DNA from: a virus
Lineage: Duplodnaviria > Caudoviricetes
DNA: 64,000 nt
Reading direction: 5' to 3' (one strand)
IMG/VR virus record: IMGVR_UViG_3300027566_000003
Shown here: piece by piece, positions 2 through 54,093 of the stretch
How positions within the stretch are numbered: the first letter of the stretch is position 1
How the letters are laid out: every line of letters begins with the position of its first letter
Notes under the pieces: model-generated
The model's database searches: none
The model's input: only the letters and a program-made list of their open reading frames with translations
Told to the model about the DNA's origin: nothing
Program-made: the position numbers and the translations under genes

Positions 2-1213
2 GATTCGTGTGTATTAATGGATCACCCAAAAGAAGTTTTTGAAGAGTTTGATCATATCTTCCTTAGTGGTTATGTTGCAGGAGAGATGGACAATTTAAGG
101 AAGAATGGAAAAACAGAAGAAACAAAATTTCAGGCCAGAAGAGCGTGTAGATATATAGATGCTAATGAGGACAAGATTACATATCTTATTAGTGAGACTG
201 ATTACGATCTTCCAGAAAACTTTGATAAAGATAATATGGATAATAAAATAATCTCTATTTTATATAAAATGTGGAAAAATGATAATAAATTTATTGCTTA
301 TAGTAATGACATATTGTTTAGGCAAAAATGTAAGGATTTAGGTATTCCTTATAGTAAATTTGAACCTACGGAATCTAATGGTGAAAAATACACAGGATAT
401 AAGACCATCCAAATGACAGAAAATGAACTTGCTAATTGGTATCAATCAGAAGCAAAATCAAATCTTTGGAATATGAATATCAATGAGTATTTATTAGTTC
501 AGGTTAATAATGAAATAGTTGATAAATATCGTTGGACATCAAATGGGTTTAAAAGTATTGTAAAAAAAGATTTTAAAAGTATGATGTTTGGAAATTTAAA
601 ACCAAAAGATATATACCAAGAGTTATGTATTGATAGTTTACATAATAATCAATTTACTGCTATTACAGGTAAACCAGGAAGTGGTAAATCACTTAGTAGT
701 CTTATGTATATTATGTGGGCATTACAAAACCAAAAATATGATTCCTGCGTAATAATGTATAATCCCACAAAAGTTCGTGGTGCAGTTGATATGGGTTATT
801 ACAGTGGCAACTCCATAGAAAAGGGAATGCAACAGTTTATCGGCAATATGCTTATTACTAAATTTGGTGATAAAAGTATTGTGAATAATTTAATTACACA
901 AGACAAGATTAGGTTGATTCCTATGGCAGATAGTAGAGGTATGGAGATAACTGATAATCAAATTCTTTATATAACTGAAGCTCAAAATACTACGCCTGAT
1001 TTAATGAAACTTGCATTATCAAGATGTAGTAAAGATGCGAAAATCATTATAGAAGGTGATCCATATCAACAGGTAGATAAAATAGATTATGTTGGAAGGA
1101 ATAATGGTCTTCTACGAGCTATTGAAGTTTTCAAAAATGAAGATATGTTCGGATGTGTACATTTACCTAATATTTGGAGAAGTAGAATGGCAGATATATC
1201 TGATAAGATGTAA
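2..1213 (+). CDS. phoH: PIN-PhoH family protein (N-terminus cut by window edge)
   Basis: The frame is open upstream of the ATG at 17 and reads DSCVLMDHP, a PIN-like first motif. Walker A GKPGSGKS, EAQN, IIIEGDPYQQVD and WRSRMA are PhoH motifs. Confidence 0.9.
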   Translation, partial: DSCVLMDHPKEVFEEFDHIFLSGYVAGEMDNLRKNGKTEETKFQARRACRYIDANEDKITYLISETDYDLPENFDKDNMDNKIISILYKMWKNDNKFIAYSNDILFRQKCKDLGIPYSKFEPTESNGEKYTGYKTIQMTENELANWYQSEAKSNLWNMNINEYLLVQVNNEIVDKYRWTSNGFKSIVKKDFKSMMFGNLKPKDIYQELCIDSLHNNQFTAITGKPGSGKSLSSLMYIMWALQNQKYDSCVIMYNPTKVRGAVDMGYYSGNSIEKGMQQFIGNMLITKFGDKSIVNNLITQDKIRLIPMADSRGMEITDNQILYITEAQNTTPDLMKLALSRCSKDAKIIIEGDPYQQVDKIDYVGRNNGLLRAIEVFKNEDMFGCVHLPNIWRSRMADISDKM

Positions 1214-1757: not shown

Positions 1758-1832
1758 GCTGGATTAGCTCAGTGGTAGAGCAGTTGCCTTGTAAGCATCA
1801 TGTCATCCGTTCAAATAGGATATCCAGCTCCA
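1758..1832 (+). tRNA. tRNA-Thr(UGU)
   Basis: Acceptor stem GCTGGAT/ATCCAGC, D-arm TAGCTCAGTGGTAGAGC, anticodon loop CT-TGT-AA, TTCAAAT T-loop and encoded CCA. There is one mismatch each in the anticodon and T stems. Confidence 0.93.
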
Positions 1833-2387: not shown

Positions 2388-3029
2388 ATGACAACTGAAA
2401 CAATGACAATCCATAAAGCATTATCTGAACTCAAAGTAATTGGTGCTAAAATTGATAAAACTATTTCCCAAGGAGTATATTGTAAAGCAAATAAACATTC
2501 CAACGACAAAATCAATGGTGTATCAGTAGAAGAATTCAAGACGCAAATTCAAGCTAGTTGGAACAAAGCCAATGACTTAATCAGTCGCAGGAATGCCATT
2601 AAAAGAGCAACTGTTTTATCTAATGCTACTACAAAAGTAAAAATTGGCGATAATGAAATGACGGTAGCAGAAGCAATTGAGATGAAAAATAGTGGAATGG
2701 CATATAAGAAAACTTTAATGAACACAATGAACCAACATTATGTACATTCTATTCAAATTATAGATAAAGAAAATGGAGAAACATTAAATCAAAAAGCTGA
2801 AAATTATGTAATTGGATTATTTGGTTCAAAAGAAGGTAAGACAAATACTGATGAACTTGAAAAAGTTAGGAAAGAATTTATTCTTAATAATTCATTTGAA
2901 TTTGTAGATCCAATTAAAGTTAAGGAAAAAATTGATGAATTAGAGAAAGAAATTTCTGATTTTGAATCTGAGATCGATTCCACGCTGAGCACATCAAATG
3001 CTCTGACTGTAATAGAAATTGAATATTAA
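2388..3029 (+). CDS. Conserved coiled-coil hypothetical protein, possibly distantly DIP1984/DUF6847-like
   Basis: Good RBS. Motifs TIHKALSELK, SNATTKV, MTVAEAIEMK and C-terminal SNALTVIEI; the family assignment is inference. Confidence 0.75.
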   Translation: MTTETMTIHKALSELKVIGAKIDKTISQGVYCKANKHSNDKINGVSVEEFKTQIQASWNKANDLISRRNAIKRATVLSNATTKVKIGDNEMTVAEAIEMKNSGMAYKKTLMNTMNQHYVHSIQIIDKENGETLNQKAENYVIGLFGSKEGKTNTDELEKVRKEFILNNSFEFVDPIKVKEKIDELEKEISDFESEIDSTLSTSNALTVIEIEY

Positions 3030-3052
3030 TCCATAATCCTTAAGAAATAACT

Positions 3053-3401
3053 ACTTACTGTTTTCCGAAAACTTTAAACCATAATTGACAAGTCTTTTAT
3101 GTACTTAGACTGGTTTAATAAATATAAAGAAAGTACATATTATTTACATCTTTAACAGGATGTTTACTTTGAAAATTATATGATTTAATTAAAATCAAAT
3201 GATACAAAAGCAAAACAACAAAAATTCTGTAAAGATTAAAGTTTAAATCTAAACGCTTAAAGTTAAAAATTCAAAGTTTATTATAAGTGTAAAGTTTAAG
3301 GTTTAAATAGTAAATAATAAAGATTGATTAAATCCCTGATAAAACGGTTTGGGATGATTATGCTTGCCCAAAAGTATCCGCAGGGCTGGAAAGCAGTAAG
3401 T
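3053..3401 (+). ncRNA. Candidate structured ncRNA with pseudoknot and heptamer-repeat core
   Basis: A 14-bp closing helix (3053-3066 with 3388-3401), internal stems, a 9-bp loop pairing TATGTACTT/AAGTACATA, and no ORF. Confidence 0.7.
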
Positions 3402-3805
3402 TATTATATAAATTTTGATTTATTAAAAGGAATTACGCCGACTGAATTAATTAAGACTTAATAAGATGTTTGTGAATACACATCTTACACATGAGAATAA
3501 AAGTTGTGTTTGACTACGGTTAAAAATACAATCTCTCATGGATACATACTTGGGGTTTAATCAAGAGACTCTATCTCATATTTCGCCTTTATGGTGGTTA
3601 TAAAAGTCGTTTGTGCTTTAGGCACGTTATATGGAGGCGTATGTCTCCCATCTAATATGGAAGGAGTTTCATAAACTGCCTTCAATAACAGAGTATGGAG
3701 TGTAAAGAAATTGTGTGACACAGTTAACTTTTCATTCTGTACTCTTATTTAATTTATTATACCCTCTCCCCTATTCTCTTATAAGGAGATGAAATATAAT
3801 AAAAG

Positions 3806-3988
3806 ATGAAGACAAATAAAATAGTAGAACAGCCTATTGAAAATAAATTAAACAAATACAATAATTATGATATTGAAAATGCTGATACTAAATGTCCGGT
3901 GTGTGGTAAATTACGTTTCTGGCTTAAATTTTATTGTAACGAAACAATTCTAAGATGTGAAGATTGTGGACATTTTGAGAAAATTTAA
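3806..3988 (+). CDS. Small zinc-ribbon protein
   Basis: CPVC and CEDC motifs, with RBS AAGGAG. Confidence 0.65.
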   Translation: MKTNKIVEQPIENKLNKYNNYDIENADTKCPVCGKLRFWLKFYCNETILRCEDCGHFEKI

Positions 3989-4055
3989 TCCCCTATTGGT
4001 CGATTAGGGGATATTTTAATTTTGAAAATAAAATAACTTCTTTAGGAGAATTTAT

Positions 4056-5378
4056 TTGGAATATATACGAAAAGAAAATGAGTCATTTTTACAATTTGCT
4101 GATAGACTATTATCCAATAGAAAAGAATATGATTTAGACAAAGTTGAAGTTTATGAAATATTATACGGAGAACAAGTATCAGCAGATCATGCAAGAAAAT
4201 GTCTAACTAGTTTAGAAAAAACAATTGAACAAGATAAAGTATGCAAAGTTGATATGCAATCTGATGAAAAATGTCTAGAAGATAATTTGACTAAAAAATA
4301 TAAATCAACCACAGAAATTAATAAAGATGGAACATATTCTAGTGATAAATTATTAGTTATGTCTGAAGAAGAATCTAAAAATGTTAATTATCTTTTAAAA
4401 TCTCATGGTTTTGACAACTTATCATGGGAATTAGTATCAGCAAGAAACAATATTTGGAATGTTTATAGTAAACAAGATGGTGTTAAAACACTTTATTCAA
4501 GCAAAATAGTAACTAAACCTAAAGTAAATCAATTTAATATTAATTGGATTAAACAGGCATTAGAAGATTTAGACCTAGAAAGTCCAGTAGTAGATCAAAA
4601 GCCTTATCATGTTAAAGGAAAAACTTTAGAAATTAATTTGGCAGATGTTCATATTGATAAACTTTGCTGTATTGATGAAACAAGAAATAGTTATTCTACA
4701 GAAATTGGTATACAAAGATTATGGAATGTAATTAATGATATTATTGAAAAAGTAAATTTTTATAATATCAAGAAAATAATATTTCCATTTGGTCAAGATG
4801 TGGCGAATATTGATAATATTTTCAATTCCACAACAAAAAATACGCCACAAGACACAGACGTAAAATATGATGTAATGTATAAATTGTTACTCAAAAATAT
4901 AATTCAAATTATACATAAGCTTACTGATATTGCTCCAGTTCATGTAATATATGTCGGAGGAAATCATGATAAAGTAACATCGTTTACAATGACTGAAGCA
5001 ATGTATTGGCATTTTTTGAATAATGATAATGTAGAAGTTGATTCTGTATTTAATAATCGCAAATACATAATGATTGGGAAAAACCTTCTGGGATTAGCAC
5101 ACGGGGCAGATGAACGCAAAAACATAGTTTATTGTATGCAAAATGATGTTCCTGAATTATGGGGGAAAGCGAAATATAGAGAATTTCATTTATCTCATTT
5201 CCATAAAGAAAAAATGACAGATGAACAAAATGGCATTGTTTTTAGATGGATAAGTGCAATTTGTGGCAATGACGCTTGGACTTATAATAGTGGATATGTT
5301 GGTGCTCAAAAGAAAGCTCAATCTTTTATTTGGGATGACGATAAGGGTTTAGAAATGATTATTAATAGTTATGTTTAA
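4056..5378 (+). CDS. Calcineurin-like metallophosphoesterase (YonJ-like)
   Basis: DVHID, GQD, GGNHD, AHG and HLSHFH motifs. Confidence 0.85.
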   Translation: MEYIRKENESFLQFADRLLSNRKEYDLDKVEVYEILYGEQVSADHARKCLTSLEKTIEQDKVCKVDMQSDEKCLEDNLTKKYKSTTEINKDGTYSSDKLLVMSEEESKNVNYLLKSHGFDNLSWELVSARNNIWNVYSKQDGVKTLYSSKIVTKPKVNQFNINWIKQALEDLDLESPVVDQKPYHVKGKTLEINLADVHIDKLCCIDETRNSYSTEIGIQRLWNVINDIIEKVNFYNIKKIIFPFGQDVANIDNIFNSTTKNTPQDTDVKYDVMYKLLLKNIIQIIHKLTDIAPVHVIYVGGNHDKVTSFTMTEAMYWHFLNNDNVEVDSVFNNRKYIMIGKNLLGLAHGADERKNIVYCMQNDVPELWGKAKYREFHLSHFHKEKMTDEQNGIVFRWISAICGNDAWTYNSGYVGAQKKAQSFIWDDDKGLEMIINSYV

Positions 5379-53897: not shown

Positions 53898-54093
53898 TGC
53901 AATTATAGATATTATGTACCCATGCGTTAGTGGGGAATTTAAGCCTTTAGAGTGTTAAAAAACTTTAGTAGTATTAGAAATAATATGAAAAAGAACACGA
54001 TGAATAAGGAATGAAACATAAAGTTATAAATTATGTATTTATTTTATAATTTCTTATAAGTTTTCAGTAACGGTATTTTTATGCCCTAATATA
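53898..54093 (+). ncRNA. omegaRNA scaffold and IS607-like right end plus guide
   Basis: GTACCCATGCGTTAGTGGGGAATTTAAGCCT scaffold ending TTTCAGTAACGG (GG at 54072-54073). Confidence 0.65.

What the first reader, a model, noticed from the sequence alone, without database searches (positions are those of the whole stretch)
3053..3401. ~350-nt closed RNA with a pseudoknot and heptamer-repeat core behind an unknown coiled-coil gene
Seen: ACTTACTGTTTTCC (3053) pairs with GGAAAGCAGTAAGT (3388). The 5' domain has TTAAACCA/TGGTTTAA enclosing AGTCT/AGACT, whose loop TATGTACTT pairs perfectly with AAGTACATA (3131). The 3' domain has nested CCCTG/CAGGG, CGG/CCG and TTTGGG/CCCAAA stems. Between them (~3229-3335) lie about a dozen degenerate ~7-nt units (GTAAAGA TTAAAGT TTAAATC, TTAAAGT, TCAAAGT, GTAAAGT TTAAGGT) that cannot pair with each other. 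It starts ~25 nt after the stop of gene 2388-3029. Inference: this is a protein-plus-RNA module in which the repeats are multivalent binding sites (sponge or scaffold for an oligomer of the upstream protein) or a template. I do not recognise it as a named family.
Basis: partly seen in the sequence, partly recalled or inferred. Interest (0 to 1): 0.82.

Follow-up and report, generated by a model that had tools for sequence, protein, structure and literature searches.

The report
Heptad-repeat RNA partnered with phage protein
The 350 bases after this phage gene encode a real, knotted non-coding RNA with a 7-base repeat array that follows the same uncharacterised protein gene in phages (including T5 relatives) and in tRNA gene arrays of several bacterial phyla; public catalogues hold only its first 86 bases, and its function is unknown.

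Summary
Window 3053-3401 (+) is a conserved structured RNA. Its ends pair in a 14-bp stem, its 5' domain is a pseudoknot, and it carries about 12 heptads (TRF: period 7, 11.6 copies).

Comparison of 167 copies (56 non-redundant) adds two covarying long-range helices, P2 and P3. They tie the 5' strand to the 3' hairpin, giving a double-pseudoknot core that closes the ~100-nt heptad array into a loop.

The 5' 86 nt is a divergent copy of Rfam RAGATH-27 (59 bits; gathering score 76.1; relatives score 93-97). The rest of the RNA, and the T5-type and cyanobacterial forms, match no Rfam family.

Gene and RNA are linked both ways:
- RNA to gene: 25 of 25 loci.
- Gene to RNA: 74 of 74 viral loci and 75 of 75 assessable genome loci.

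The protein has no Pfam family and is predicted to form a homodimer. The module sits in tRNA supply and repair islands, often with a tRNA nested in its linker, as in GOLLD.

My best reading is a protein-RNA particle acting in tRNA or translation conflicts. Binding has not been shown, and the protein is acidic.

Earlier notes of this scan describe what looks like the same family on other DNA (e1-268811, e1-5355777).

The parts
2388..3029 (+). Partner gene: 213-aa, mostly helical, acidic protein of unknown function. PHROG 1491, annotated 'tail fiber' without visible basis.
   Evidence: PHROG E = 1.5e-54; no Pfam family above its cut-off. 2084 homologous clusters, none carrying an informative name (two carry an automatic 'predicted RNA-binding protein with TRAM domain' label). 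743 cultured phage records. AF2 pLDDT 85.5. Homodimer score 0.67 against best control 0.00.
3053..3066 (+). P1, 5' strand of the closing stem
   Evidence: Pairs with 3388-3401. RNAalifold finds compensatory changes at most positions. Cognate duplex -16.8 against non-cognate -7.2 kcal/mol over 56 representatives.
3067..3071 (+). GAAAA junction, near-invariant across phyla
   Evidence: G15, A16 and A17 are invariant and A18-C20 nearly so in alignment A1. GAAAA or GAAAG follows P1 in genome loci.
3071..3075 (+). P2, 5' strand (ACTTT), a long-range helix
   Evidence: Pairs with AAAGT 3371-3375. Covaries, for example AAAACGAC/GUCGUUUU, CCCCUG/CAGGGG, AAAUCUC/GAGAUUU. Cognate -6.7 against non-cognate -3.4 kcal/mol.
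3080..3086 (+). P3, 5' strand (CATAATT), a long-range helix to the apical loop of the 3' hairpin
   Evidence: Pairs with GATTATG 3356-3362. Predicted by RNAalifold, with up to 10 of 21 sequences changed on both sides per pair. Cognate -7.7 against non-cognate -3.6 kcal/mol.
3091..3139 (+). 5' pseudoknot domain: hairpin AGTCT/AGACT, whose loop 3098-3106 pairs with 3131-3139. With 3054-3090 this is the RAGATH-27 part.
   Evidence: Rfam RF03100 matches 3054-3139, model positions 1-86, 59.0 bits. The hairpin and the loop pairing covary in Firmicute and Bacteroidota copies.
3140..3228 (+). Variable linker. It holds no tRNA here; many relatives have a same-strand tRNA or tRNA-like insert at this place.
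   Evidence: Poorly aligned in A1. 80 of 141 loci found through the protein have a nested tRNA (Rfam tRNA hits inside elements).
3229..3333 (+). Heptad array, about 14 units of YUAAAGN, in two sub-arrays separated by GUUUAUUAU
   Evidence: TRF period 7, 11.6 copies. Identity 0.47 at lag 7 and 0.42 at lag 14, against 0.20-0.26 off-phase, in 56 representatives. Array length is 98-105 nt in 26 of 31 measured copies. The A positions are invariant and show no covariation.
3334..3385 (+). 3' hairpin domain: P5 CCCTG/CAGGG, P6 CGG/CCG and P7 GGG/CCC. Its apical loop carries the P3 3' strand (3356-3362) and its 3' internal loop carries the P2 3' strand (3371-3375).
   Evidence: RNAalifold on 32 copies: P5 pair types UA 15, AU 9, GC 4, CG 3; P7 pair types GC 15, AU 6, CG 6, UA 2.
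3388..3401 (+). P1, 3' strand. Conservation among 93-96% relatives ends about 14 nt later.
   Evidence: Alignment A3 diverges after window position about 3415.

Best explanation
Window 3053-3401 is the gene for a discrete non-coding RNA, read on the + strand. It is the full-length form of a class that Rfam knows only by its 5' fragment, RAGATH-27.

Shown: three nested long-range helices (P1, P2, P3) clamp the first 35 nt onto a 3' three-stem hairpin. This double-pseudoknot core closes a loop that holds a variable linker and a length-constrained array (about 100 nt) of about 14 single-stranded YUAAAGN heptads. The linker often carries a tRNA in relatives.

Inferred: the RNA is made together with the upstream 213-aa protein and works with it as a ribonucleoprotein. 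The heptad array would offer many equivalent binding sites for protein dimers, or for a host factor that the pair recruits.

Inferred from context: the particle belongs to the tRNA supply and repair islands that phages and mobile bacterial tRNA arrays carry against attacks on translation. It would act as a scaffold or decoy there.
For: RNA nature and strand:
- P1, P2, P3, P5, P7, the 5' hairpin and its pseudoknot all covary.
- P1 keeps tandem G-U/U-G pairs in most copies (UG 16 and GU 18 of 21 at two positions). On the other strand these would be mismatches.
- The + strand folds at z = -5.7.

Linkage to the protein gene:
- 25 of 25 loci found by an RNA pattern alone have the gene 20-25 nt upstream.
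- 74 of 74 viral loci found through the protein have the RNA.
- 75 of 80 genome loci have it; the other five end within 356 nt of the gene.
- The pairing holds down to 30% protein identity, across Firmicutes, Bacteroidota, a gammaproteobacterial MAG, cyanobacteria and T5-like phages.

Heptads under selection as sequence rather than as pairs:
- Invariant A positions, 7-nt phase and constant array length.

Protein oligomerisation:
- Homodimer score 0.67, best of 3 controls 0.00.
- That mark was reached by 20 of 30 proteins solved as pairs of one chain and by 1 of 23 solved as single chains. My own alignment was used, so these counts hold only roughly.
- The runs agree in at least 97% of contacts; partner pLDDT is at least 87.

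Context:
- 131 of 141 loci found through the protein hold tRNAs, up to 31 in 8.6 kb.
- Neighbours include microbial PARG, RNA ligases, EF-Tu, NADAR, peptidyl-tRNA hydrolase, Thg1, RNase T and PIN.
- Phage tRNA repair is established knowledge (PMC9503650). Long tRNA arrays with embedded hypothetical genes are described in PMC8421152.

Weak hint of a discrete transcript:
- Whole contigs of 212 and 213 nt from two metatranscriptome studies lie exactly within the element of L261, at 3972-4185 of 3959-4199.
Against: - No binding test was possible.
- The protein is acidic (pI 5.0-5.7 in 14 of 15 members) and has no recognisable RNA-binding domain. It has only an unnamed structural neighbour, 3kdq (Z = 11.4, which is within the range seen for unrelated helical bundles).
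- In L127 and L194 another ORF lies between the gene and the RNA, so strict adjacency is not required.
- The window's own phage shows only one tRNA nearby.
- The RNA-library contigs could come from carried-over DNA.
Confidence: 0.45

Rival explanations
1. An RNA-only machine of the GOLLD/ROOL kind. The RNA folds, and perhaps self-assembles, on its own. The heptads, many of which contain UUAA, UUUAAA or AGCU palindromes, would make tertiary or intermolecular RNA contacts. The neighbouring protein acts in the same pathway without binding the RNA.
For: It has the same genomic habits as GOLLD and ROOL: it occurs in phages and prophages, near tRNA islands, with a tRNA in a variable linker and a universally conserved 3' part beside a variable 5' part (10.1101/2024.12.08.627333). 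The protein is acidic.
Against: GOLLD and ROOL have no dedicated partner gene, whereas here the linkage is essentially complete in both directions. There is no Rfam match to GOLLD or ROOL. The palindromes are not kept in cyanobacterial units such as UCAAAGC or UCAACCC.
Confidence: 0.22
2. A decoy or sponge. The array of YUAAAG units titrates a host RNA-binding factor or nuclease that acts on tRNA or mRNA, for example an anticodon nuclease or a single-strand AU-specific RNase. This would protect the phage's or array's tRNAs.
For: It is embedded in tRNA supply and repair islands. It offers about 14 near-identical single-stranded sites on a nuclease-resistant closed scaffold. Some units read like U33-N34-A35-A36-A37 anticodon loops; that reading is my inference only.
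Against: No target is identified. The motif is conserved across hosts as far apart as Clostridia, cyanobacteria and enterobacteria, which argues for a universal or self-encoded ligand. This idea also does not explain the obligate protein gene.
Confidence: 0.18
3. A cis-acting element of the transcript: a 3' UTR stabiliser or regulator of the upstream gene, or a processing or antitermination element of the tRNA operon.
For: It starts 23 nt after the stop codon on the same strand. No terminator-like site lies between or after. It lies inside tRNA operons in many genomes.
Against: The size and complexity (seven covarying helices, two long-range pseudoknots) and the phased array go far beyond known 3' stabilisers. 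The RNA persists when an ORF separates it from the gene (L127, L194). It is present where no tRNA follows, as in the window and the L011 clade, which has 0 tRNAs in 25 loci.
Confidence: 0.1
4. A DNA-level element, with the heptads acting as iterons, an origin, a packaging site or a promoter array.
For: It contains AT-rich phased 7-bp repeats. An earlier scan note links CTTAAAG heptamers to T7-type origins in another genome (e1-021153).
Against: The flanking helices covary and use strand-specific G-U pairs. Orientation relative to the gene is fixed in all roughly 170 copies. The element is found inside chromosomal tRNA arrays of cyanobacteria.
Confidence: 0.03

Closest known systems
RAGATH-27 RNA motif (Rfam RF03100; candidate motif from the 2017 survey PMC5737381; function unknown)
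   Same: Window 3054-3139 aligns to all 86 model positions. Relatives with the same full architecture score 93-97 bits.
   Different: The window copy is below the gathering score (59.0 against 76.1). The Rfam model covers only the 5' quarter and marks positions 1-46 as unpaired. Here those bases form P1, P2 and P3 with sequence 250-400 nt downstream. The heptad array, the 3' domain, the partner gene and the T5-type and cyanobacterial forms are absent from Rfam.
GOLLD and ROOL (large ornate phage and prophage RNAs; RF01998, RF03087)
   Same: All are large multi-pseudoknot RNAs of unknown function in phages and prophages, near tRNA islands. GOLLD likewise has a conserved 3' part, a variable 5' part and tRNAs in its linker (10.1101/2024.12.08.627333).
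   Different: There is no sequence or model match. This RNA is smaller (230-490 nt), carries a 7-nt periodic array and has an obligate partner protein gene. No partner is known for GOLLD or ROOL.
Bacterial and phage Ro60 (Rsr) with Y RNA
   Same: A protein gene sits next to an ncRNA whose ends form a closing stem and which can carry a tRNA-like module. Both are found in RNA-repair contexts and in phages (PMC4201824, PMC7790460).
   Different: The protein is not a Ro60/TROVE protein; it has no Pfam family and a helical-bundle model. The RNA core is a double pseudoknot with a heptad array, which Y RNAs lack.
TRAP and HutP with their repeated-triplet RNAs
   Same: An oligomeric protein would read many evenly spaced short purine-rich words; HutP reads NAG triplets at 7-nt spacing.
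   Different: There is no homology to TRAP or HutP. Those RNAs are short leader segments, not closed 350-nt RNAs. Binding here is untested.

Membership tests
RAGATH-27 (RF03100) | Covariance-model score at or above the curated gathering score of 76.1 bits | tested here: not met
   The window scores 59.0 bits, E = 3.3e-7, and gives no hit at gathering threshold. Homologues L093, L015, L091, L078 and L196 score 92.9-97.4 bits.
RAGATH-27 (RF03100) | Full-length match with the conserved 5' sequence and the annotated 7-bp hairpin | tested here: met
   Model positions 1-86 are aligned. The hairpin strands UAUGUAC/GUACAUA are paired and posterior probabilities are high. The window aligns end to end with L093, which passes the gathering score.
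GOLLD / ROOL | Match to RF01998 or RF03087 | tested here: not met
   No hit at gathering threshold over the window and none at E <= 10 over 2900-3900.
GOLLD / ROOL (habit only) | Phage or prophage location, next to tRNA islands, tRNA nested in a variable linker | tested here: met
   Met for the family: 131 of 141 loci found through the protein hold tRNAs and 80 have a nested tRNA. The window copy has one tRNA 1.2 kb upstream and none nested.
Ro60-Y RNA | Adjacent Ro60/TROVE-domain protein | tested here: not met
   The partner protein has no Pfam family above cut-off. The fold searches returned no Ro60-like ring.
tmRNA / tRNA | Detected by ARAGORN or the Rfam tRNA/tmRNA models | tested here: not met
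   The only tRNA in the window is tRNA-Thr at 1758-1832.
[quoted passage not shown] | Embedded in, or directly flanking, arrays of many co-oriented tRNA genes | tested here: met
   Met for the cyanobacterial copies: Rfam lists 23 tRNA hits in L217 and 30 in L237, each 8.6 kb; across the 48 cyanobacterial and other loci the median is 15 tRNAs. Not met in the window's own phage.
HutP / TRAP-type RNA-protein pairs | Partner protein of the HutP or TRAP family | tested here: not met
   No such Pfam hit.

The most novel reading that the evidence does not exclude
This protein-RNA pair is a universal, undescribed ribonucleoprotein of phage and bacterial tRNA islands, comparable in standing to Ro-Y RNA. 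Dimers of the acidic helical protein would load onto two phased heptad sub-arrays held in a loop by a double-pseudoknot clamp. The particle would protect or service the tRNA pool during phage-host conflict, for example as a decoy for anticodon nucleases or as a platform for tRNA repair enzymes. Because T5-like phages carry it, this is directly testable. It could also show what the other tRNA-island RNAs (GOLLD, ROOL) are for.
Probability: 0.25. Interest if true: 0.9.

Novelty: new variant of a known kind. Interest (0 to 1): 0.78.

Why it matters
Large structured RNAs next to phage tRNA islands (GOLLD, ROOL) are a standing puzzle: their structures are solved but their function is unknown.

This RNA shares their habits and has three things they lack:
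- a dedicated, universally linked protein gene;
- a phased single-stranded repeat array that looks like a binding platform;
- presence in cultured, genetically tractable phages (T5 relatives, Lactococcus 949 group, Bacillus, Vibrio and Pseudomonas phages), and in the long tRNA arrays of filamentous cyanobacteria that respond to translational stress.

It also shows that a catalogued motif, RAGATH-27, is only the 5' quarter of a much larger RNA. In addition, 743 phage records carry the partner gene, which many of the listed records annotate as 'tail fiber protein' (and others as 'hypothetical protein'), with an unannotated RNA gene behind it wherever I looked.

Tried and rejected
Expression
- No RNA holder is listed for the window's own sequence; the only full holder is a groundwater DNA run that may be the source.
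- Metatranscriptome contigs laid on the Limnospira locus cover the element, but DNA carry-over cannot be excluded.

Protein function
- Foldseek against PDB: nothing at E <= 0.001.
- Profile search of PDB sequences: only coiled-coil noise.
- AFDB clusters, BFVD and the protein Atlas: only uncharacterised relatives.
- VIA: 3kdq, of unknown function, Z = 11.4, within the range of unspecific helical matches.
- Exact-sequence look-up of the Calothrix protein: not on record.

Literature
- 'RAGATH-27' appears in no held full text, and the supplements of the 2017 survey are not held.
- Searches for a T5 stable or non-coding RNA at this locus found nothing relevant.
- A 2026 preprint on tRNA mimics does not mention it.

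Other
- No terminator-like site and no excess of promoter-like sites around the locus.
- blastn against cultured phages finds only one distant gene match.
- My automatic hairpin finder chose inconsistent stems in the 5' domain, so the loop-pseudoknot test was weak overall (cognate -8.6, non-cognate -7.4 kcal/mol). The covariation is clear only case by case.
- I did not run the count of structure pairs or build a full-length covariance model.
- The template / reverse-transcription reading was rejected: none of the neighbouring genes I annotated in eight loci has a polymerase or reverse-transcriptase domain.

Full report
**The observation**

The window is part of a 122-kb viral record. Its only full holder among the listed sequencing runs is a groundwater metagenome. 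ORF 2388-3029 (213 aa) is followed by about 775 nt without a credible ORF.

Tandem Repeats Finder reports a period-7 array at 3230-3307 with 11.6 copies and consensus TAAAGTT. The + strand folds at -82.3 kcal/mol, z = -5.7 against dinucleotide shuffles; the - strand gives z = -4.0.

**Is it catalogued?**

At gathering thresholds the window yields only a tRNA and a RAGATH-18 elsewhere. A permissive scan of 2900-3900 aligns 3054-3139 with all 86 positions of RAGATH-27 (RF03100) at 59.0 bits, E = 3.3e-7, below the gathering score of 76.1.

Rfam's first 46 positions are marked unpaired.

**Relatives**

- A 15-nt pattern taken from the RNA alone found 25 true copies in IMG/VR. All have the 213-aa gene just upstream.
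- A search with the protein found 74 viral loci at 36-96% identity. All carry the RNA.
- A profile search of one genome per species found 80 loci. They come from Clostridia, Bacteroidota, a gammaproteobacterial MAG and about 55 filamentous cyanobacteria, at about 30% protein identity.
- An nhmmer profile of the RNA's 3' block hits downstream of the gene in 75 of those 80. The other five contigs end within 356 nt of the gene.
- tblastn finds the protein in 743 cultured phage records, including T5-like, Vibrio, Pseudomonas, Klebsiella, Bacillus, Erwinia and Lactococcus phages.
- In phage T5_ev219 the 440-nt unannotated gap after the gene contains the same architecture.
- Firmicute gut-phage copies pass the RAGATH-27 threshold at 93-97 bits. 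The T5 and Calothrix copies match nothing in Rfam even at E <= 1.

**Architecture**

RNAalifold on 21 cluster representatives recovers the closing stem P1 with many compensatory pairs. It also finds a new long-range helix, P3, between the 5' strand (window 3080-3086) and the apical loop of the 3' hairpin (3356-3362).

Inspection revealed a second long-range helix, P2 (3071-3075 with 3371-3375).

I tested the helices on 56 non-redundant copies, using sequence-only MAFFT alignments of the 5' and 3' blocks. Cognate strand pairs form far better duplexes than non-cognate ones:

| Helix | Cognate (kcal/mol) | Non-cognate (kcal/mol) |
|---|---|---|
| P1 | -16.8 | -7.2 |
| P2 | -6.7 | -3.4 |
| P3 | -7.7 | -3.6 |
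| P5 | -7.6 | -3.4 |

There are dozens of distinct helix sequences. P3, for example, reads CAUAAUU/GAUUAUG, UAUAGCCAA/UUGGCUAUA, UCGUAACC/GGUUGCGA and UUUAUGG/CCAUAAA in different copies.

RNAalifold on 32 copies of the 3' domain confirms P5 and the apical P7. The 5' hairpin and its loop pseudoknot covary in the non-cyanobacterial clades.

Its bases belong to P2 and P3.

P1 keeps tandem G-U/U-G pairs in most copies, so the + strand is the folded one.

The resulting order is: 5'-P1-GAAAA-P2-AAAC-P3-[pseudoknot domain, linker with or without tRNA]-[heptad array]-P5-P6-P7(P3')-P7'-(P2')-P6'-P5'-P1'-3'.

**The heptads**

Across the 56 copies, base identity is 0.47 at lag 7 and 0.42 at lag 14, against 0.20-0.26 off phase. 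The unit is YUAAAGN in Firmicute phages and UCAAMSC-like in cyanobacteria. The A positions are invariant and nothing covaries.

The distance from the first G(G/U)AAAG to AAAAUCC is 98-105 nt in 26 of 31 measured copies. The array is split into two sub-arrays by a GUUUA-containing spacer.

So the array is conserved as phased, probably single-stranded sequence of fixed length.

**Boundaries and expression**

Among relatives with 93-96% protein identity, similarity stops about 14 nt after P1. The unit is therefore the gene plus the RNA.

The window sequence has no RNA run. For the Limnospira copy (L261, element 3959-4199), two metatranscriptome studies each hold a whole contig lying exactly inside the element. 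One is 212 nt at 3972-4183 with no differences; the other is 213 nt at 3973-4185 with 3 differences. This is a weak hint of a discrete, abundant RNA, because DNA carry-over is not excluded.

**Context**

131 of 141 loci found through the protein contain tRNAs. The 25 loci found by the RNA pattern alone (the L011 clade and L093) contain none. Cyanobacterial loci are long tRNA arrays (median 15 tRNAs, up to 31 in 8.6 kb), of the kind described as L-arrays with embedded hypothetical genes (PMC8421152). In 80 loci a same-strand tRNA or tRNA-like sequence lies inside the RNA's linker, often with an odd anticodon.

Neighbouring genes include microbial PARG, two kinds of RNA ligase, EF-Tu, NADAR, peptidyl-tRNA hydrolase, Thg1, RNase T, PIN and HNH. 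This matches the phage toolkit for replacing and repairing cleaved tRNAs (PMC9503650).

GOLLD and ROOL share these habits: they occur in phages and near tRNA islands, and GOLLD has tRNAs in its linker (10.1101/2024.12.08.627333).

**The protein**

- It has no Pfam family, and 2084 homologous clusters carry no informative name (two carry an automatic 'predicted RNA-binding protein with TRAM domain' label).
- The 'tail fiber' label comes from PHROG 1491 and copied annotations.
- The AF2 model (pLDDT 85.5) is a helical bundle with a small sheet and two SNAxT motifs.
- The only structural neighbour that stands out is 3kdq, of unknown function (Z = 11.4, rmsd 6.5, 151 residues aligned). That Z is within the range of unspecific helical matches.
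- A homodimer is predicted: score 0.67 against best control 0.00. That mark was reached by 20 of 30 proteins solved as pairs of one chain and by 1 of 23 solved as single chains. The runs agree in at least 97% of contacts and partner pLDDT is at least 87. My own alignment was used, so the counts hold only roughly.
- The protein is acidic. This weighs against a simple RNA-binding role.

**Verdict**

The element is real and its RNA nature is well supported. The protein-RNA module is supported by near-perfect two-way linkage across phyla.

That the heptads bind the protein is a reasonable inference but untested. RNA-only, decoy and cis-acting readings remain open.

By homology the window copy belongs with RAGATH-27, but it fails the curated score. 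The class as a whole is much larger and wider than the catalogued motif.

Earlier notes of this scan (e1-268811 on a T5-like phage, e1-5355777 on a Bacillus phage) describe what looks like the same family. I confirmed independently that a T5 relative carries it.

Noticed in passing
window 53944-54011 (+): RAGATH-18 RNA (RF03064, 56.5 bits, above its gathering score). RAGATH-18-derived RNAs are reported as guide RNAs of IS607-family TnpB nucleases (PMC11061315), so a TnpB gene may lie just upstream.
   Followed up: no
window 17-1213 (+) and 1758-1832 (+): A PIN + PhoH-like ATPase gene (PF13638, PF02562) and a tRNA-Thr(UGU) lie just upstream of the module. This is the only tRNA in the 64-kb window.
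   Followed up: partly
window 3416-3805: About 390 nt after the RNA contain no credible ORF and are not conserved even among relatives with 93-96% protein identity. The Rfam hits there are at chance level.
   Followed up: partly
L130 3821-3891; L223 4685-4754; L237 4669-4741 and 77 other loci: tRNAs or tRNA-like sequences are nested in the RNA's linker, always on the same strand. Many have unusual anticodon calls (for example 'ata', a 2-nt anticodon, 'atc', 'acc'). They may be tRNA-like modules rather than decoding tRNAs. If RNase P and RNase Z excise them, the RNA would become two pieces held together by P1-P3.
   Followed up: partly
L214 about 2740-2850 (gammaproteobacterial MAG): Inside the linker a T-arm-like segment comes before a D-arm-like segment. 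This looks like a permuted tRNA or two partial tRNAs.
   Followed up: no
L217 4903-8617 (Calothrix sp. PCC 7716): Inside a chromosomal array with 23 Rfam tRNA hits in this 8.6-kb locus, the module is followed by microbial PARG, an RNA ligase (PF09414) and an EF-Tu gene. L237 has RLIG1 and PARG; L223 has NADAR and an IS605 TnpB.
   Followed up: partly
L223 about 4925-5100 (Moorena): Tandem GGGAATC and GGGAGCA heptamer runs lie directly downstream of the RNA. They appear to be cyanobacterial short tandem repeats unrelated to the element's own heptads.
   Followed up: no
743 phage records (e.g. NC_134263.1 43543-44181): The partner protein is widely annotated 'tail fiber protein'. I found no evidence for that label. 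The RNA gene after it is unannotated in the one record whose feature table I examined (T5_ev219).
   Followed up: partly
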